From: a virus
Reading direction: 5' to 3' (one strand)
Length of the DNA: 44,729 nucleotides
Virus genome (UHGV): UHGV-0045723
Part shown: one piece after another, positions 50-33,186 of the stretch
Position numbering within the stretch: position 1 is the stretch's first letter
How the letters are laid out: each line of letters starts with the position of its first letter
Translations under genes and position numbers: made by a program
The notes under the pieces: generated by a model
The model's database searches: none
What the model saw: only the letters and a program-made list of their open reading frames with translations
Told to the model about the DNA's origin: nothing

Positions 50-3000
50 ATGACATATCAGGCAATTTTCACTGGCTGGGATGATCTGACGATTGAAGAC
101 CTTCTGGTCGCTTACCGGAAAGCAAAAGCCGATAGCTTCTTTGAGAATACATTTCCTGTTGCTATCAAATTTGCCGAGTATGAGCAGGAATTACTTGAAA
201 ACCTGCAAAAACTCTTAGATCTTTTGCAGAGCGAAGATGGATTCAGTAGCAATAAGAAGTTGATTGGCAAATTTCGTTTGTTACCGAAAAAATTAACCAC
301 AAAGAAAAAACATGAATCCCAAAATGGACACGTCCACTTTTCTAATCCTAAACGAGCAGCCGACCATTTATTTAATAATTTTGATCTGATACCAGAGTTT
401 CGTATTATTGGTGACTTCCCGGTTGATAGTCACATTATCTCTGCACTATGGATTAACATGGTCGGGCATAAATTTGATGCCAGCTTAGATAACTGTTGCT
501 ATGGCGCGCGGCTAAAGCGTATTCGTAATGATGAATTATTTAGCAATGAGCAGGATAATCCATTCCATATCAGTGCCGTGGGTTCTTTTAGCCCCTACTT
601 CCAGCCCTACCAAAAATGGCGTGGTGATGGCTTAAAAGCTATACGTGACGAGTTGGAAAAAGATCGTGACATTATCGCCGCCTCACTGGATTTAAAAAGT
701 TACTATCATTTTATTGATCCACTGGCTATAACCTCTGATGATCTCTATAACACACTAAACATAAAACTGACTGAGGATGAAAAAGCGTTTACTGCACAGT
801 TAGCAGTATTCTTAAAGCACTGGTCTGACGGCGCAGCGGCATTTGGAAAGAAAATAGCGTACAAAACACCTGTTATTAATGGTGGTCTGGTCATTGGATT
901 AACAGCCAGTCGGATCATTTCAAATATATTGCTACACCATTGGGATAAATTAGTCATTGAAAAACTATCACCAATTCACTACGGTCGTTATGTCGATGAT
1001 ATGTTCCTTGTAATACGCGATACAGGGACAATTACTAATAATCACGAATTTATGTTATTGCTGCAAGATAGGCTTGGCAATGATTGCGTTTATTTGAAAA
1101 ACGAGCAAAAACAAATATGGCAAATACAGCAGGGCGAGCATTTCCAGGGTAAGACCACCATCCAGTTACAATCCGATAAGCAAAAACTTTTCGTGCTTCA
1201 AGGGAGGGCTGGAATAGACCTGCTCGACAGTATCGAAAAGGAGATCTACGAGCTTTCTAGTGAACACCGCTTGATGCCTTCACCGGATCAACTGGAACAC
1301 TCCACCGCAGCTAAAGTCCTTTCCGCTGCCGGTAGTGTAGGTGAAAATGCCGATACTCTGCGCCGTGCGGATGGATTAACCATTCGTCGTTTGGGCTGGT
1401 CACTGCAATTACGCTACGTTGAAACACTGGCACGAGATCTGCCTCCAAGTGAATGGAAAGAACAGCGGGAAGAGTTTTATCAGTTTGCCTACAACCATAT
1501 TCTTAGGGCTGATAATCTATTTGCACATTTTAGTTATCTGCCAAGGCTGCTTGGCTTTGCTATCAGTATGAATGAATGGCAGCACGCGGAAAAAATTGTA
1601 CTTAAAGCTTACGAATCCATCAACCTGTTGGCATCGGTGATTACTTCAGGTAAGGAAGTGAATATAAATGGTTGCAAAACTCGAGCAGTAAATGATCTTT
1701 GGCGCTGTATAAAAGGCACATTAAGCTGGCTATTTGTTGATGCAGCGACACGATATTACAGTCCTGACAGATTATTTCTTGATAAACGTTCAAAGAAAGA
1801 AGAGTGCCTTGCGGATACATTTTTTAATCATATTTCACAAAGTCTGACGAATCTAAAGGATTTACTGGATCTTCGCTTTGATTCAGCAGATTTTTATTTA
1901 AAAGCGCCATTGGTAGCTCGAGCTGATTTAGCAAAGGAACCTTATAAACAGATCGTAAAGAGTCAGTCGGCAGAAAAACTTGTTAATCAGCGTGATAGTA
2001 AAAAAGAAGTTAAAATACTGAAATTAATGAGCGACTCATCGCTTATTGATATTGACGTTATTAAGCTATTTTTGAAATCAACCAAGAATACCCGACTGGA
2101 AAAAGTGGCTAAAGGAAATCGTAAAAACGAAAGTTACCTACCTTACATTTTCCCTACACGTCCTTTAACACCCGCTGAAATATCAGAACTGGCCCCCGAA
2201 TGTGTTGGATTACCCTCCACATCCGACAAAAAACCAGATGAGAGACCGTCCACCATTTGGGCAAAATATACTCAAGCATTACGCGGAGTATGGATCAAAC
2301 CGACGTTGCTAGCATCGGAGCAGGACTCAGATGAAGCGACAAAAAAAGCTCGGCCTAAGAAATTCATTCATATTGGCACAGACAGGAAACATAAAGTTGT
2401 CGTTGCGCTAACCAGCATTAAAACAGAGGAGGACGACTGGGCTAAAATGGCCTGCAATAAATCTAACTTGTCCCGTTCAAGGTACCAGCGGATTTCTGAA
2501 CTGGTTAATGCAACATTGAAACTATCTCCTAAACCTGATTATGTTTTATTCCCTGAGCTTTCAATCCCGTTACGCTGGGTTAACAGTATTGCTGATCGTT
2601 TGAGTTCGGCGGGTATCAGTCTAATTGCGGGAACAGAATACCGCCACTTAGACGATAATCAACTGAAGAGTGAGGCCGTACTTGTCCTTTCAGATAACAG
2701 ACTCGGCTATCCAGCGAGTGTCAAAATATGGCAACCCAAGCTGGAACCCGCCGTAGGTGAAGATGAGGCATTATTTTCAACTTATGGTAAGTCTTGGGAT
2801 TCGACACTTAATGTTAAACAACGTAAGCCGGTATATATTCATCACGGCGTCAATTTTGGCGTTATGATTTGCTCTGAACTCCAGAATAGTAAAGCGAGGA
2901 TCCGTTTTCAGGGCGCACTCGATGCATTAATGGTATTGAGCTGGAATAAAGATCTAGATACGTTTGCATCGTTGATTGAATCAGCAGCGCTGGATATTCA

Positions 3001-3259
3001 TGCCTATACTATTTTAGTGAATAACCGAAAATACGGCGATAGTCGCGTACGTTCCCCGGCAAAAGAACCCTTTATGCGTGATATTGCTCGTGTGAAGGGC
3101 GGTGATAATGACTTTGTGGTCGCTGCAACGCTGGATATCGACTCGTTAAGGGCATTTCAGAGCAGGGCAAAACGCTGGCCTAAAGGCGGCGATAAATTCA
3201 AACCGTTACCTGAAGGATTCCAGTTGGCAAAGAACCGCAAAAAGCTACCGCCAAAATAA
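50..3259 (+). CDS. Defence-type (UG/Abi) reverse transcriptase fused to C-terminal nitrilase domain; DRT type 1 (UG1)-like
   Basis: 1069-aa ORF; RT motif C YVDDMF (HYGRYVDDMFLVIRD) in N-terminal half; C-terminal half has nitrilase-superfamily Glu/Lys/Cys context (VLFPELS, KIWQPK, VMICSELQ). Confidence 0.85.
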   Translation: MTYQAIFTGWDDLTIEDLLVAYRKAKADSFFENTFPVAIKFAEYEQELLENLQKLLDLLQSEDGFSSNKKLIGKFRLLPKKLTTKKKHESQNGHVHFSNPKRAADHLFNNFDLIPEFRIIGDFPVDSHIISALWINMVGHKFDASLDNCCYGARLKRIRNDELFSNEQDNPFHISAVGSFSPYFQPYQKWRGDGLKAIRDELEKDRDIIAASLDLKSYYHFIDPLAITSDDLYNTLNIKLTEDEKAFTAQLAVFLKHWSDGAAAFGKKIAYKTPVINGGLVIGLTASRIISNILLHHWDKLVIEKLSPIHYGRYVDDMFLVIRDTGTITNNHEFMLLLQDRLGNDCVYLKNEQKQIWQIQQGEHFQGKTTIQLQSDKQKLFVLQGRAGIDLLDSIEKEIYELSSEHRLMPSPDQLEHSTAAKVLSAAGSVGENADTLRRADGLTIRRLGWSLQLRYVETLARDLPPSEWKEQREEFYQFAYNHILRADNLFAHFSYLPRLLGFAISMNEWQHAEKIVLKAYESINLLASVITSGKEVNINGCKTRAVNDLWRCIKGTLSWLFVDAATRYYSPDRLFLDKRSKKEECLADTFFNHISQSLTNLKDLLDLRFDSADFYLKAPLVARADLAKEPYKQIVKSQSAEKLVNQRDSKKEVKILKLMSDSSLIDIDVIKLFLKSTKNTRLEKVAKGNRKNESYLPYIFPTRPLTPAEISELAPECVGLPSTSDKKPDERPSTIWAKYTQALRGVWIKPTLLASEQDSDEATKKARPKKFIHIGTDRKHKVVVALTSIKTEEDDWAKMACNKSNLSRSRYQRISELVNATLKLSPKPDYVLFPELSIPLRWVNSIADRLSSAGISLIAGTEYRHLDDNQLKSEAVLVLSDNRLGYPASVKIWQPKLEPAVGEDEALFSTYGKSWDSTLNVKQRKPVYIHHGVNFGVMICSELQNSKARIRFQGALDALMVLSWNKDLDTFASLIESAALDIHAYTILVNNRKYGDSRVRSPAKEPFMRDIARVKGGDNDFVVAATLDIDSLRAFQSRAKRWPKGGDKFKPLPEGFQLAKNRKKLPPK

Positions 3260-3421
3260 GAAACTGATTTTCGCTATTAATAATCAGGGTATTTTTGCGT
3301 GAGATGTCGGTAAACATGATGTAGCCCTTGCCACTCATGACCAATCGCAGTATCTTTCTCCCGCGCCTGCAAAATCAGGCGTCGGGATTAGCCTCCTGAA
3401 GAAATCTTATCGGCGACACAT

Positions 3422-3442
3422 GACGCGCCAGCGTCTTTTTTT
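3422..3442 (+). terminator. Putative rho-independent terminator downstream of RT-nitrilase gene
   Basis: GACGC-gcca-GCGTC hairpin followed by a run of 7 T. Confidence 0.4.
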
Positions 3443-3605
3443 GTGTTGTTCGCACGGTTACATCTCAATGGTGGGCCGGGCGGGGGCGGCGCAAGACGCG
3501 CCAGTGTCCGATAAGGCTGGTAAGGCTAACCCTGCCCGGTTCCACCACCCGCGAGATTAGCCTCTCCGGTGGTGGCTTGAACACCCACTTATCGGAGGTT
3601 GCCCT

Positions 3606-6446: not shown

Positions 6447-7316
<870 letters not shown>

Positions 7317-29824: not shown

Positions 29825-30151
29825 TTACTCCTTCGAGCTACCAAATTTGTTGCCGATTACTCTCATTGCAGCACCACGAATAGCATCGACGCCGATCAGC
29901 CCAACGCCGCCACCAATGGCAACAGAAAGTGATTTAGGCCATCCGACATACTCAAGCGCGGATGCAAAGGTCAGCGTCAGAGCGCCACAGAGCAAAATCT
30001 CGAGCGTTTTTCTCTTCCAGCCACCACCACCGCCAAAATAGGCAATGCGCAAGCCAGCCATAACGATCGACATAATCACTGCGCCCAGCGGTGTGTCTCC
30101 ACGCCACCAGCTCTGGACCAACTCCAGCCAAGTATTTGGGTTATGAGGCAT
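29825..30151 (-). CDS. Holin
   Basis: 108-aa ORF with hydrophobic helices, immediately upstream of endolysin. Confidence 0.7.
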   Translation of the reverse strand: MPHNPNTWLELVQSWWRGDTPLGAVIMSIVMAGLRIAYFGGGGGWKRKTLEILLCGALTLTFASALEYVGWPKSLSVAIGGGVGLIGVDAIRGAAMRVIGNKFGSSKE

Positions 30152-30303
30152 TTGTAGTTATCTCTCACCTCGCTGATACAGCAGGTGCAAATTGAGGAAA
30201 CATCATGTACCGCAAATCAGAAGCGGAAACGTCAAAGAAGCCGAGCCAATGGATAACTGCGGGATAGACTAGGCCCAACGAATCCCCAGGCCCAGAAACG
30301 ACA

Positions 30304-30325
30304 AAACCCGCTCGACGGCGGGTTT
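30304..30325 (-). terminator. Stable hairpin upstream of holin; candidate tR'-type terminator
   Basis: AAACCCGC-tcgacg-GCGGGTTT, 8-bp stem; only a weak U-tract on the minus strand. Confidence 0.3.
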
Positions 30326-30442
30326 AAGCTGTGTGGCGAAGTAACCACTCTTAACACAATACAATACTTTTTGCGTACGCGTTAGTGTTTTGATAGAATT
30401 TTCAGCCACATAAAAATTCATTCTTATAATTCGGGATATATA

Positions 30443-31618
30443 ATGGATATAACTTGTTTAGAATGTGGCAATGTTCTTGACGACCCAACTGTAGCTTGCG
30501 ATAAATGCGGTGCCACGCCTCATGTTGTAGTGCTGGGCAAACAATCGTACTTTCCTATTGGTGCTGTAACAGCAAATCTTGAAAAAAATGATTCAAGAGC
30601 ATTTGATTATCGATTAGGTGAAGTTTGGGATCTAAAAAATGAAGTCACATCTGAATTCATAACCAGAATTGAGAAAAAATTTAGCCGAAAAAACAAATTT
30701 CATAACTTCCTAGACTCAGATCACAACCCTTCATCCATTCCTACGATCCTAAAAAAATACATTAATAAAAATAATGAATTCATTGATTTATCTAGAGCTA
30801 TAATAGAGAAGCTTAAACATAATGCTAATAACGAATCGAGAGTTGCCCAACTTCAGGGGGGGAGCGTTGTTTTCATCCACTATAAGTCTACCGAACCAGA
30901 GGATTTGGGGAAACTTCTAATCGTAATGGTTGATAAACAAAGCGCCTATGACTTTGATTCGGATAAGTTGACCCCAACAAGATTAAATCCAATTAATACC
31001 GATGCCTTACGGCAGGCTGCGATGTTCGATTTAACTTTATTCGAAGCCAGTTATCCAGAAAACAAGGGTGACTCATATGTACATTTCTTGCAAGGTAAAT
31101 CTAAAAGCGATTTTTTCAAAGACTCATTAGGTTGCCGACATGATTCGGACAATAAAAGAAGCATTCAGCAATTATTCAGTGCTATAGATATTTTTGCTAG
31201 TAAAAACTCACTCGGTCGTGTACTGCGTGATACTATTGACAATGAAGTTAAATCCTTACTGGAAAAAAAATCAAAAGATAAACACGGAAATAAGTCCGTT
31301 AAGATAGAGGATATTTCAAAAATAATTGACTCATGCCTGACTGATTCACACAAATGTAAGGGAACGTTTGTCGATTTTGTTAATCTTAATGGTTTCCAGA
31401 TTGACCCTCAATTTGAACCAACTCCTAAAGCAGCTGAAAGCGCGCTTACAATTGAAGTGGCAGATAACGACAATAATTTTAAGTTGAAAATAATGCGTGG
31501 AGCTATTGGAGACGAAAAGTCAAATAAGCCTGTAATTCTCACTGACAACAAATGCGAAATTGTGATAAAATTGAGTCAGGCAAATTATGATGAACTCAAA
31601 AGATATAGAGACAGCTAA
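30443..31618 (+). CDS. Zinc-ribbon protein with NdpA/YejK-like (NA37) nucleoid-associated domain; candidate defence gene A
   Basis: 391-aa ORF in AT-rich DNA; N-terminal CLECG-x12-CDKCG; central GGSVVFIHY, LLIVMVDK, YVHFLQGKSKSDFFKDSLG resemble E. coli YejK as I remember it. Confidence 0.7.
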   Translation: MDITCLECGNVLDDPTVACDKCGATPHVVVLGKQSYFPIGAVTANLEKNDSRAFDYRLGEVWDLKNEVTSEFITRIEKKFSRKNKFHNFLDSDHNPSSIPTILKKYINKNNEFIDLSRAIIEKLKHNANNESRVAQLQGGSVVFIHYKSTEPEDLGKLLIVMVDKQSAYDFDSDKLTPTRLNPINTDALRQAAMFDLTLFEASYPENKGDSYVHFLQGKSKSDFFKDSLGCRHDSDNKRSIQQLFSAIDIFASKNSLGRVLRDTIDNEVKSLLEKKSKDKHGNKSVKIEDISKIIDSCLTDSHKCKGTFVDFVNLNGFQIDPQFEPTPKAAESALTIEVADNDNNFKLKIMRGAIGDEKSNKPVILTDNKCEIVIKLSQANYDELKRYRDS

Positions 31619-31620
31619 TA

Positions 31621-32835
31621 ATGACAATTGCTGATGACTTATCAAGATTAGCGCAGATTATTAACGGAGCCTCAAGCAGAGTTGAGGGCTACTACACTGT
31701 CATAAGTCTTGAAGAAAGCATTGTTATTGTAAATAGTTCTGAAATAATTAGACTGTTACAATCTATAGGTTATAAAAAGGCAACAACCTGCATCGAAAAT
31801 AATGAAATTTGGCTAGATCGCCAAGCTTCATCTTGGGATGACGCTATAATTTATGAGAATGTTGAGTCTTTTTGGTCTAGAGTAAACACCCAAAACGCTC
31901 TTCCGAAAAATTATATCATCGGAACGCCGTTAATACTCCCTACTTCTAAGAATGAAAGCATCGAAAAAATCCATATTTTCTTTATGTGGAAAGATATCCT
32001 TTCATTAATTGCTGATCATCATAACAGTGACTGCTCTGTCTTATTTTTCACCAATGAAGACAAAAGTTATACAGTCGAACTCACGCATTTTTTACAATAT
32101 AGCGAGATTAATCGCTTATCGAACTCGTCTCTTAAATATGAAATTATAAAGGAGCTTCTCGACACAATAAAAATCAATGATTTACACAAAAGCGAGCGCA
32201 AGCTCGTTATACGCTCAGCCATAAACGAAGTATTTAAAGCAAATGGTACGTTCAATTTCTTTGACTTGCTTAACTCTACTGAACTCGTCAGGAAAAAATA
32301 TGATGAACTATATGAGATTTACACAAAGAGGTTTTCTGTAAATAAAATTCTTAACGAACTCGATGAGAAAAATCTTGAGTTCACGAGTAAAATTAACGAA
32401 TTCATATCATCTAATCAGACAAAAGCATTGACTATTCCCGGTGCATTAATAGCAGCTGGTGGCTTAGTGAAGGCTAATGAAACAACCGAAGCAATATTGA
32501 TTATCGCAGGACTTTGGATGATAAAAAAAGTCAATTACATTTCTATTGAGATATTCAATGAAACATTCGACAACTTACGTTCTCGAGTGGAGTCCGCTTT
32601 CGATAAGTATTTAAAGTTTGAAGAAAATAAAGAAATCAAAGATAATGCAGATAGTATTAAGAGTAGCATTACAGGTTTGATTGATAAAGCTAAAAAAAGG
32701 ATGAGAACTGTTAAATATCTCGCATCAGCCATGTTTTATGGAGGCCTTATTTACGTTGGATATAAACAGTTCCCAGTCTTTTTTGAAAAATCGGCAGTAA
32801 ATCTATTTTATTTTTTATGCCATACTATAAGCTAA
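31621..32835 (+). CDS. Membrane protein with helical N-terminal domain; candidate defence gene B
   Basis: 404-aa ORF starting 2 nt after gene A stop; hydrophobic helices ALTIPGALIAAGGLV...ILIIAGLWMI and YLASAMFYGGLIYVGY. Confidence 0.7.
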   Translation: MTIADDLSRLAQIINGASSRVEGYYTVISLEESIVIVNSSEIIRLLQSIGYKKATTCIENNEIWLDRQASSWDDAIIYENVESFWSRVNTQNALPKNYIIGTPLILPTSKNESIEKIHIFFMWKDILSLIADHHNSDCSVLFFTNEDKSYTVELTHFLQYSEINRLSNSSLKYEIIKELLDTIKINDLHKSERKLVIRSAINEVFKANGTFNFFDLLNSTELVRKKYDELYEIYTKRFSVNKILNELDEKNLEFTSKINEFISSNQTKALTIPGALIAAGGLVKANETTEAILIIAGLWMIKKVNYISIEIFNETFDNLRSRVESAFDKYLKFEENKEIKDNADSIKSSITGLIDKAKKRMRTVKYLASAMFYGGLIYVGYKQFPVFFEKSAVNLFYFLCHTIS

Positions 32836-33186
32836 CATTGCTAAACAGCCGTCAACAAACCCCATTGCAGTTTGCAGTTCCTTCCTAATTGTGCCATCAG
32901 AGCATTTTCTCTTCTTCGCAATAGTGCGTAATGAGATACCGATAACAAAGTGGGCGATGATGAGCTCATATTCCTCTGGTTTATACCTTCTCAACCGAGC
33001 CACACAACTGTCTATCATGATGCCTTCGTCATCATCACACTGAATCCGTGACTTTTTGCCATGAGGTAAAAGTCCCTTGAAACCAGCCGCTATCGGCTGC
33101 CAGTCCACTCCGCTATTGTCTGAAGCAGCCCAAGCTCCCCAACGATCCATTACTTCATACATATCACGCATCAACTTTCTCCACAA
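32815..33186 (-). CDS. Late-gene antiterminator Q (phage 82-type)
   Basis: 123-aa ORF with RWGAWAA...SIAAGFKGLL...C..DDD...C....RL pattern; position ahead of lysis genes. Confidence 0.8.
   Translation of the reverse strand: MWRKLMRDMYEVMDRWGAWAASDNSGVDWQPIAAGFKGLLPHGKKSRIQCDDDEGIMIDSCVARLRRYKPEEYELIIAHFVIGISLRTIAKKRKCSDGTIRKELQTAMGFVDGCLAMLAYSMA

What the first reader, a model, noticed from the sequence alone, without database searches (positions are those of the whole stretch)
30443..32835. Candidate undescribed two-gene system between Q and the holin: zinc-ribbon/NdpA-like protein plus membrane protein
Seen: two tightly coupled plus-strand genes (stop and start 2 nt apart) in visibly AT-rich DNA, opposite in orientation to the entire late operon, with the 3' end of gene B overlapping the 3' end of Q by 21 bp. 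Gene A (391 aa) opens with a CxxC-x12-CxxC zinc ribbon; its core (GGSVVFIHY, LLIVMVDK, LNPINTDALRQAAMFDLTLFE, YVHFLQGKSKSDFFKDSLG) tracks the NdpA/YejK nucleoid-associated protein as I recall it ([37 protein letters not shown]). Gene B (404 aa) is helical with two hydrophobic helices near the C-terminus. Established: the Q-to-S interval of lambdoid phages is a classic cargo site (for example Shiga toxin genes), and prophage-borne defence genes often pair a sensor with a membrane effector. Inference: a lysogen-expressed anti-phage or exclusion module in which a DNA-binding sensor controls a membrane effector. I know of no described defence system with this domain pair.
Basis: partly seen in the sequence, partly recalled or inferred. 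Interest (0 to 1): 0.85.

Follow-up and report, generated by a model that had tools for sequence, protein, structure and literature searches.

The report
Known DS-1 anti-phage system in prophage
The two genes are real and do form a phage-defence module, but it is already published: both proteins match "DS-1", a system cloned from E. coli and shown to block phages, so it is a correct rediscovery, not a new system.

Summary
Two coupled plus-strand genes (30443-31618, 391 aa; 31621-32835, 404 aa) sit in an AT-rich island (GC 0.33-0.38, against about 0.5 in the flanks) between Q and the holin of an E. coli prophage.

- **Gene A:** a YejK/NA37-family protein (Pfam E=1e-23; PDB YejK 9BE2 E=1e-9) with a conserved N-terminal four-cysteine zinc ribbon. 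The spacing is CxxC-x10-CxxC, not x12.
- **Gene B:** an acidic α/β N-domain followed by long helices with conserved hydrophobic segments.

The pair is not undescribed. NCBIfam has equivalog models DS1_1_antiphage and DS1_2_antiphage, and both proteins score above the curated cut-offs. Gene A is 100% identical to WP_000355468.1. Gene B matches all 399 printed residues of WP_000150292.1. Together these are system DS-1 (D390) of DeWeirdt et al. (bioRxiv 2025; Science 2026). DS-1 was cloned with its native promoter and shown to restrict Bas1 (about 10^7-fold), Bas26, Bas3, T3 and T5.

An April 2026 preprint (PANGU) gives a mechanism for this architecture. A nucleoid-bound NAP sensor is released when phage degrades the host genome, then binds the acidic domain of a membrane effector, causing abortive infection. 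I could not test whether DS-1 belongs to PANGU type II, because those sequences are not held.

Verdict: already known; low interest.

The parts
30390..30417 (+). Candidate promoter of the DS-1 operon (TTGATA-16-AAAAAT), 25 bp upstream of the gene A start codon
   Evidence: Consensus scan only, 9 of 12 matches. The number of promoter-like sites in the region is no higher than in shuffles, so this is weak evidence. The published construct carried the 'predicted native promoter region'.
30443..31618 (+). DS-1A: zinc-ribbon plus YejK/NA37-family nucleoid-associated protein, 391 aa (WP_000355468.1)
   Evidence: 100% identical to the sequence printed in Table S8 of PMC13092281. NCBIfam NF053868 DS1_1_antiphage scores 451 bits against a cut-off of 330. 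Pfam NA37 E=1.2e-23. phrog_3767. RefSeq annotates identical DNA with this accession.
30455..30508 (+). N-terminal zinc ribbon of DS-1A (C5, C8, C19, C22; CxxC-x10-CxxC)
   Evidence: Cysteine positions. All four Cys are invariant in the partner NA37 proteins of Yersinia, Serratia and Pseudoteredinibacter loci at 34-45% identity. Pfam zinc-ribbon models score below threshold (E=0.07-0.28). The paper's HHpred table lists a weak NinF/Zn-beta-ribbon match at residues 3-26.
30632..31570 (+). NA37 (YejK-like) domain of DS-1A, residues 64-376
   Evidence: Pfam PF04245 envelope. PDB 9BE2 YejK aligns to residues 64-324.
31621..32835 (+). DS-1B: 404-aa partner protein with no Pfam family (WP_000150292.1)
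   Evidence: Matches all 399 residues printed (truncated) in Table S8, and the length is the same. RefSeq annotates 100%-identical DNA as WP_000150292.1. NCBIfam NF053869 DS1_2_antiphage scores 375 bits against a cut-off of 315. phrog_5023.
31621..32265 (+). DS-1B N-terminal α/β domain (residues 1-215), net acidic; candidate NAP-binding module
32422..32535 (+). DS-1B conserved hydrophobic helical hairpin (residues 268-305, KALTIPGALIAAGGLV...AILIIAGLWMI); candidate membrane-insertion element
   Evidence: This lies in the most conserved stretch of the family: residues 241-280 show 85-87% majority identity, with invariant Q266, K268, A269, P273, A275 and A278. Family-mean hydropathy peaks here. 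The AF2 model is helical.
32716..32763 (+). DS-1B C-terminal hydrophobic helix (residues 366-381, YLASAMFYGGLIYVGY)
   Evidence: The family-mean hydropathy peak is conserved across homologues. The AF2 model is helical.
32815..33186 (-). Context: antiterminator Q, whose 3' end overlaps DS-1B by 21 bp
   Evidence: Pfam PF06530 E=3e-47. Homology of Q genes from other prophages stops at about 32843-32870, so the last codons of Q arrived with the cassette.
30304..30325 (-). Context: terminator-like hairpin upstream of the holin (candidate late-operon terminator tR')
   Evidence: Terminator scan: 8-bp stem with 5 GC pairs, followed by a T-run. It lies in the segment (about 30303-30400) that matches about 2600 E. 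coli genomes. Naming it tR' is inference.
29825..30151 (-). Context: lambda-family holin S, first gene of the lysis cassette
   Evidence: Pfam PF05106 E=6e-25.

Best explanation
This is the published two-gene anti-phage system DS-1 (DS-1A plus DS-1B), carried as cargo in the Q-to-holin slot of an E. coli prophage and transcribed from its own promoter, opposite to the late operon. That identity is shown, and I put it at about 0.97. The anti-phage activity is reported for the identical operon. The mechanism below is inferred by analogy with type II PANGU, and I put it at about 0.5-0.6. In an uninfected lysogen, DS-1A coats the nucleoid through its YejK-like domain and is kept apart from DS-1B, which sits at the inner membrane through its conserved hydrophobic helices. 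When an infecting phage degrades or remodels the host chromosome, DS-1A is released. DS-1A then binds the acidic N-terminal domain of DS-1B, and that binding activates the helical and hydrophobic part of DS-1B. Activated DS-1B compromises the membrane, so the infected cell stops supporting phage growth (abortive infection). The conserved zinc ribbon on DS-1A probably adds a DNA or partner contact; its role is unknown.
For: Identity: gene A is 100% identical to WP_000355468.1. Gene B matches all printed residues of WP_000150292.1. The published span is also 2393 bp (NZ_RRVY01000002.1 220602-222994). RefSeq uses the same accessions on 100%-identical DNA. Both NCBIfam equivalog models score above cut-off. 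Defence: Table S7 of PMC13092281 gives -log10 EOP values of 7.6 for Bas1, 2.7 for Bas26, 1.7 for Bas3, 1.7 for T3, 1.0 for T5 and 0.9 for T7, on a low-copy plasmid with the native promoter in MG1655. The system is flagged as replicated. Mechanism by analogy: the PANGU preprint shows that both genes of an E. coli NAP plus TM-effector operon are required, and that neither is toxic alone. It also shows that protection is abortive, that Pag2A-GFP leaves the nucleoid on T4 infection, and that the acidic N-domain of Pag2B binds Pag2A at KD 19 nM. The DS-1B architecture fits that description. Its N-domain is net negative in 49 of 49 homologues, its C-terminal part is basic, and its hydrophobic helices are conserved. 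The NA37 gene lies directly upstream of every DS-1B homologue examined, down to 30% identity. Those loci sit next to BstA, AbiEii and AAA_21 genes or in the same Q-holin slot.
Against: No mechanistic experiment on DS-1 itself is reported in the papers held here; the main text of the DefensePredictor paper never discusses it. The host ranges differ. DS-1 has no T4 entry among its seven rows in Table S7 but strongly blocks Bas1 and mildly blocks T5. PANGU-Ecu blocks T4, and T1 and T5 escape it. The DS-1B N-domain is only mildly acidic (pI 5.2, net -8 or -9), and no 'DNA mimic' or other fold relative was found. The hydrophobic segments are short for classical TM helices. The PANGU preprint does not mention a zinc ribbon.
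Confidence: 0.6

Rival explanations
1. DS-1 is a defence system, but it senses phage differently from PANGU. DS-1A would recognise a phage component directly, such as incoming phage DNA or a phage DNA-binding protein, possibly through its zinc ribbon, and would then activate or release DS-1B. Host genome degradation would not be the trigger.
For: The phage spectrum differs from PANGU-Ecu: strong against Bas1 with no T4 entry, versus T4-specific with T1 and T5 escaping. The zinc ribbon is invariant in the DS-1A subfamily and is not mentioned for PANGU NAPs. The DS-1B N-domain has no detectable relative among solved structures.
Against: The two-gene architecture, the acidic N-domain and the hydrophobic C-terminal part match the type II PANGU description. 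The spectrum differences could come from expression level, since a native promoter on a low-copy plasmid was compared with IPTG-induced codon-optimised operons.
Confidence: 0.25
2. The pair serves the prophage's own biology, for example lysis timing or superinfection exclusion of close relatives at the Q/holin junction, and the plasmid phenotype is a side effect.
For: It sits between Q and the holin and overlaps the 3' end of Q. A Yersinia homologue occupies the same slot in a different prophage.
Against: It protects MG1655 from unrelated lytic phages when cloned alone on a plasmid. Homologous pairs occur outside prophage lysis regions, next to BstA, AbiE and AAA_21 genes. A related prophage carries a different candidate defence system, PDC-M53, in the same slot, which points to a cargo hotspot.
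Confidence: 0.05
3. The pair is a classical toxin-antitoxin or addiction module that stabilises the prophage, with DS-1B as a membrane toxin and DS-1A as its antitoxin.
For: Two tightly coupled genes, one of them a putative membrane protein.
Against: For the analogous type II PANGU operon, neither gene alone was toxic and both were needed for defence. At about 390-400 aa, both proteins are far larger than typical TA components.
Confidence: 0.05

Closest known systems
DS-1 (working ID D390) of DeWeirdt et al., DefensePredictor (bioRxiv 10.1101/2025.01.08.631726; Science 2026, PMC13092281); NCBIfam NF053868 and NF053869
   Same: The proteins are the same: DS-1A is 100% identical, and DS-1B matches all printed residues and carries the same RefSeq accession. 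The operon length is also 2393 bp and the gene order is the same.
   Different: Nothing at the sequence level. The paper does not describe the Q-holin prophage context, the conserved zinc ribbon or the DS-1B architecture, and it tested no mutants for DS-1.
Type II PANGU (Pag2A NAP plus Pag2B transmembrane effector), Li et al., bioRxiv 10.64898/2026.04.06.716658
   Same: A YejK-like NAP gene is directly followed by an effector gene. The effector has an acidic N-terminal domain and a hydrophobic C-terminal part. The system is found in E. coli, is linked to defence islands, and defends against phage.
   Different: Sequence relationship is untested because the sequences are not held. The reported phage spectrum differs. 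The zinc ribbon is not mentioned for Pag2A. DS-1B has an extra ~100 residues of helix and a third hydrophobic segment after the hairpin. Neither paper cites the other.
E. coli YejK (NdpA), Pfam NA37 PF04245, PDB 9BE2
   Same: The NA37 domain scores above the Pfam gathering threshold, and the core motifs are shared.
   Different: DS-1A is not a YejK orthologue: NCBIfam YejK equivalog NF001557 scores 81 bits against a cut-off of 341. It also has an added N-terminal zinc ribbon, is encoded on a mobile element and is paired with an effector.
Type I PANGU (Pag1A NAP plus Pag1B GRel toxSAS; PDB 9UFP)
   Same: The sensing logic is the same: a NAP sensor and an effector that carries an acidic NAP-binding domain.
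   Different: The effector is a soluble alarmone synthetase, not a membrane protein. DS-1B has no toxSYNTH domain.

Membership tests
DS-1 anti-phage system (DefensePredictor) | DS-1A protein sequence (WP_000355468.1) | tested here: met
   391 of 391 residues are identical to the sequence printed in Table S8. NF053868 equivalog scores 451 bits against a cut-off of 330.
DS-1 anti-phage system (DefensePredictor) | DS-1B protein sequence (WP_000150292.1) | tested here: met
   399 of 399 printed residues are identical and the length is the same, 404 aa. RefSeq assigns this accession on 100%-identical DNA. NF053869 equivalog scores 375 bits against a cut-off of 315.
DS-1 anti-phage system (DefensePredictor) | Two-gene transcription unit, A then B, with a gap of 30 bp or less | tested here: met
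   The gap is 2 nt. The span is 2393 bp, as published.
DS-1 anti-phage system (DefensePredictor) | Reduces plating of phages when expressed from the native promoter | not testable with these tools
   Reported for the identical operon in Table S7: Bas1 7.6 logs, Bas26 2.7, Bas3 1.7, T3 1.7, T5 1.0.
NA37 / YejK nucleoid-associated protein family (PF04245) | Score above the Pfam gathering threshold | tested here: met
   84.5 bits against a cut-off of 24.6, covering 292 of 325 profile positions. PDB YejK matches at E=1.2e-9.
NA37 / YejK nucleoid-associated protein family (PF04245) | Orthology to chromosomal YejK (NCBIfam equivalog NF001557) | tested here: not met
   81 bits against a cut-off of 341. 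DS-1A is a family member but not YejK itself.
NA37 / YejK nucleoid-associated protein family (PF04245) | Binds DNA and localises to the nucleoid | not testable with these tools
   Inferred from family membership only.
Type II PANGU | YejK-like NAP encoded in a bicistronic operon (gap under 40 bp) | tested here: met
Type II PANGU | Effector with an N-terminal acidic 'DNA-mimicking' (DMK) domain | tested here: inconclusive
   The N-domain has net charge -8 or -9 and pI 5.2, and is net negative in 49 of 49 homologues. Acidity is moderate. Surface charge could not be computed, and no fold relative was found.
Type II PANGU | Effector with a C-terminal transmembrane region | tested here: inconclusive
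   Three conserved hydrophobic helical segments are present. They are short, only one 19-residue window exceeds KD 1.4, and no dedicated TM predictor was available.
Type II PANGU | Sequence homology to Pag2A and Pag2B (the authors' HMMs, Cluster 2) | not testable with these tools
   The sequences are in a supplementary table that is not held.
Type II PANGU | NAP relocates from the nucleoid on infection, and protection is abortive | not testable with these tools
   Experimental. Reported for PANGU-Ecu only.
Zinc-ribbon domain | Two CxxC knuckles, conserved | tested here: met
   C5, C8, C19 and C22 are invariant in 4 of 4 divergent partner proteins. Pfam zinc-ribbon models score below threshold, as is usual for such short motifs.

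The most novel reading that the evidence does not exclude
DS-1 may not be a member of PANGU type II. It could be a separate NAP-based defence lineage whose NAP carries an obligatory zinc ribbon. Its effector would combine an orphan-fold acidic domain with a pore-like helical hairpin. Its trigger, from T1-like Bas1 but not T4, would differ from EndoII-type genome degradation. If so, NAP-based sensing reads more than one kind of nucleoid perturbation.
Probability: 0.3. Interest if true: 0.4.

Novelty: already known. Interest (0 to 1): 0.15.

Why it matters
For the scan it matters little, because the system is published, validated and already in NCBI's annotation models. It does show that the first-stage reader can infer a real defence system from raw sequence alone. 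Some useful points remain:
- DS-1 (DefensePredictor) and type II PANGU appear to describe the same architecture, yet neither paper cites the other.
- The DS-1A subfamily carries an invariant zinc ribbon that neither paper discusses.
- The most conserved part of DS-1B is a Gly/Ala-rich hydrophobic hairpin, which makes it the obvious target for effector mutagenesis.
- The Q-holin slot of this prophage lineage swaps defence cargo: DS-1 here and PDC-M53 in a relative.
- The same prophage also carries a UG5-nitrilase DRT and PD-T4-3.

Tried and rejected
- **PADLOC-DB 2.0:** no hit for either protein. The library predates DS-1, so this is not evidence of novelty.
- **Phage genomes (INPHARED):** no match by megablast or tblastn. 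The cassette is seen only in integrated prophages and islands, not in deposited phage genomes.
- **Solved structures, by sequence:** the DS-1B profile matched nothing.
- **Weak Pfam hits for gene B** (SWIB, CdvA, UPF0184; E of 0.09 or higher): rejected as noise.
- **PANGU-Ecu sequences or accessions:** not held.
- **Late transcription reading antisense through the cassette:** considered and judged unlikely. The conserved terminator-like hairpin and the widely conserved segment lie between gene A and the holin, which places the late promoter region on the holin side of the cassette. This placement is inference.
Full report
**1. Observation**

The six-frame ORF list shows gene A at 30443..31618 (+ strand, 391 aa) and gene B at 31621..32835 (+ strand, 404 aa). 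On the opposite strand it shows Q at 32815..33186 and a holin at 29825..30151. The A/B junction reads AGC-TAA-TA-ATG, a 2-nt gap, and gene B overlaps the 3' end of Q by 21 bp. GC content is 0.33-0.38 across 30400-32800, against 0.44-0.58 on either side.

Two details need correcting:
- The zinc ribbon is C5-x2-C8-x10-C19-x2-C22, not x12.
- Gene B has three conserved hydrophobic helical segments, not two.

**2. What the proteins are**

- **Gene A:** it scores 84.5 bits on Pfam NA37 (cut-off 24.6) over residues 64-376. It is not YejK itself: the YejK equivalog model gives 81 bits against a cut-off of 341.
- **Gene B:** it has no Pfam family.
- **NCBIfam:** gene A hits NF053868 'DS1_1_antiphage, nucleoid-associated anti-phage protein' at 451 bits (cut-off 330). 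Gene B hits NF053869 'DS1_2_antiphage' at 375 bits (cut-off 315). Both are equivalog models.
- **Other libraries:** PADLOC-DB 2.0 (2023) has nothing for either protein. PHROGs has families for both, phrog_3767 and phrog_5023.

**3. The published source**

A full-text search led to DeWeirdt et al., 'DefensePredictor' (bioRxiv January 2025; Science 2026, PMC13092281). Its supplementary tables define system DS-1 (working ID D390) as NZ_RRVY01000002.1 220602-222994 on the + strand. That span is 2393 bp, the same length as this finding. It encodes WP_000355468.1 (391 aa, 'nucleoid-associated protein'; HHpred NA37 at residues 42-382) and WP_000150292.1 (404 aa, hypothetical).

- The window's gene A is identical to the printed WP_000355468.1 over all 391 residues.
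- Gene B is identical to the 399 residues printed for WP_000150292.1.
- A 100%-identical 2801-bp stretch in E. coli MLI107 is annotated by RefSeq with exactly these two accessions, between an 'antiterminator Q family protein' and a 'phage holin, lambda family'.

[quoted passage not shown] Table S7 has seven D390 rows:

| Phage | -log10 EOP | Note |
|---|---|---|
| Bas1 | 7.6 | |
| Bas26 | 2.7 | small plaques |
| Bas3 | 1.7 | small plaques |
| T3 | 1.7 | small plaques |
| T5 | 1.0 | |
| T7 | 0.9 | small plaques |
| SECphi27 | about 0 | small plaques |

DS-1 is flagged as replicated. The main text says only that a 'YejK nucleoid-associated domain' was newly validated in defence. DS-1 is not among the systems dissected by mutagenesis.

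**4. Published mechanism for this architecture**

A bioRxiv preprint of April 2026 (10.64898/2026.04.06.716658) defines 'PANGU' systems as a YejK-like NAP plus an effector.

- **Type I:** it pairs the NAP with a GRel toxSAS. Cryo-EM, T4 EndoII escape mutants and microscopy support a model in three steps. The NAP sits on the nucleoid. It is released when phage nucleases degrade host DNA. It then binds an acidic 'DNA-mimicking' (DMK) domain of the effector and activates it.
- **Type II:** it pairs the NAP (Pag2A) with a transmembrane effector (Pag2B) that has an N-terminal DMK domain and a C-terminal TM region.
- **The E. coli type II operon (PANGU-Ecu):** both genes are required, and neither is toxic alone. 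Protection against T4 is abortive, and Pag2A-GFP leaves the nucleoid on infection. The DMK domain binds Pag2A with KD 19 nM. How Pag2B is activated is stated to be unknown.

The preprint does not mention DS-1, DefensePredictor or a zinc ribbon. Its sequences are not held here.

**5. Tests of those features on DS-1**

*Gene B family*
- The family is small: 69 clusters at 90% identity. Almost all are from Enterobacterales, with a few from Pseudoteredinibacter or Pseudoalteromonas, and none has a Pfam domain.
- In a 49-sequence alignment the N-terminal domain (residues 1-215) is net negative in every member (mean -9.1). The C-terminal part is net positive (mean +3.3).
- The most conserved block is residues 241-280, which runs into a Gly/Ala-rich hydrophobic hairpin (KALTIPGALIAAGGLV ... 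AILIIAGLWMI). Q266, K268, A269, P273, A275 and A278 are invariant.
- A third hydrophobic helix (366-381) is also conserved.

*Structure of gene B*
- AlphaFold2 gives a confident model for the whole protein (pLDDT 85). It shows an α/β N-domain followed by long helices at 220-269, 271-282, 288-331, 337-383 and 385-403.
- The N-domain modelled alone reaches pLDDT 93 and pTM 0.86.
- Fold searches gave no specific relative. Foldseek against the PDB found nothing at E of 0.001 or below.

*Gene A and gene order*
- The four zinc-ribbon cysteines are invariant in the NA37 partners of three divergent loci at 34-45% identity.
- The NA37 gene lies directly upstream of the gene B homologue in every locus examined.
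- In Yersinia enterocolitica (38% identity) the pair again sits between a PF06530 Q and a holin of a different family, in the opposite orientation.
- In Serratia it lies beside a BstA_C gene and resolvases.
- In Pseudoteredinibacter it lies beside an integrase, an AAA_21 gene and AbiEii.

**6. Context in E. coli**

- The full cassette, always at 99% identity or more, occurs in 106 of 5426 complete E. coli genomes. It does not occur in deposited phage genomes.
- Homology to other prophages stops at about 30400 on the holin side and at about 32843-32870 inside the 3' end of Q. The AT-rich insert therefore supplies the last codons of Q.
- A terminator-like hairpin on the minus strand (30325..30304) lies in the widely conserved segment upstream of the holin. 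I infer that the late promoter and terminator region is on the holin side of the cassette, so late transcription need not cross it.
- A related prophage in E. coli 8178 has the same Q, DUF968, KilA-N and RusA genes and a lambda-family holin. It carries a different two-gene plus-strand cassette in the same slot, and that cassette matches the PADLOC candidate system PDC-M53A/B. The slot behaves as a defence-cargo hotspot.

**7. Explanation and its limits**

What is shown: the pair is DS-1, the identical proteins are reported to defend against phages, gene A is a YejK-family protein with a conserved zinc ribbon, and the two genes are evolutionarily linked.

What is inferred: DS-1 works like type II PANGU, by nucleoid release of the NAP, binding to the acidic domain of B, and membrane damage leading to abortive infection.

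Several things argue against simply equating DS-1 with PANGU-Ecu:
- The reported host range differs. DS-1 blocks Bas1 strongly and has no T4 entry, whereas PANGU-Ecu blocks T4 and T1 and T5 escape it. Expression conditions also differed.
- The N-domain is only moderately acidic.
- The hydrophobic segments are short.
- The sequence relationship could not be tested.

**8. Verdict**

Novelty: already known. Interest is low. The residual value lies in linking DS-1 to the PANGU architecture, in the conserved zinc ribbon and hydrophobic hairpin as mutagenesis targets, and in the hotspot context.

Noticed in passing
window 50..3259 (+): A 1069-aa ORF at the far end of the prophage has no Pfam hit at 1e-5. 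It matches PADLOC RT_UG5-nitrilase, a defence-associated reverse transcriptase (DRT), over its full length at 1034 bits.
   Followed up: partly
window 6492..7316 (+): A 274-aa GIY-YIG protein (Pfam LEM-3_GIY-YIG) matches the PADLOC model for the known system PD-T4-3 at 464 bits. With DS-1 and the DRT, this one prophage carries at least three defence systems.
   Followed up: partly
window 3363..3441 (+) and 3464..3552 (+): Rfam isrK (68.8 bits) and C4 antisense RNA (65.7 bits) both score above gathering thresholds. They lie side by side between the DRT gene and a 156-aa ORF with no family. This resembles a P1/P7-type immunity or antirepressor control region.
   Followed up: no
L009 2472..3960 (E. 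coli 8178, NZ_CP151934.1), equivalent to the window's Q-holin slot: A related prophage with the same Q, DUF968, KilA-N and RusA genes and a lambda-family holin carries a different two-gene plus-strand cassette in this slot. The cassette matches PADLOC candidate system PDC-M53A/B and also abuts the 3' end of Q. The slot looks like a defence-cargo exchange hotspot.
   Followed up: partly
window 32815..32870: Homology of Q genes from other prophages to this window ends about 8-35 bp inside the 3' end of Q. The C-terminal codons of Q therefore appear to have been supplied by the inserted AT-rich cassette. In Yersinia loci the Q/gene-B overlap is present in one variant and absent in two others.
   Followed up: partly
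window 30304..30325 (-) and 30303..30400: A terminator-like hairpin (AAACCCGCCGTCGAGCGGGTTT followed by a T-run) sits upstream of the holin, in a segment that matches about 2600 E. coli genomes. It is probably the late-operon terminator on which Q acts. That would place the late promoter between gene A and the holin, divergent from the DS-1 promoter.
   Followed up: partly
L002 7423..8334; L005 8617..12594: Divergent DS-1-like pairs lie in apparent defence islands. In Serratia the pair is next to a BstA_C-domain gene and resolvases. In Pseudoteredinibacter it is next to an integrase, an AAA_21/AAA_15 gene and AbiEii/DUF6088.
   Followed up: no
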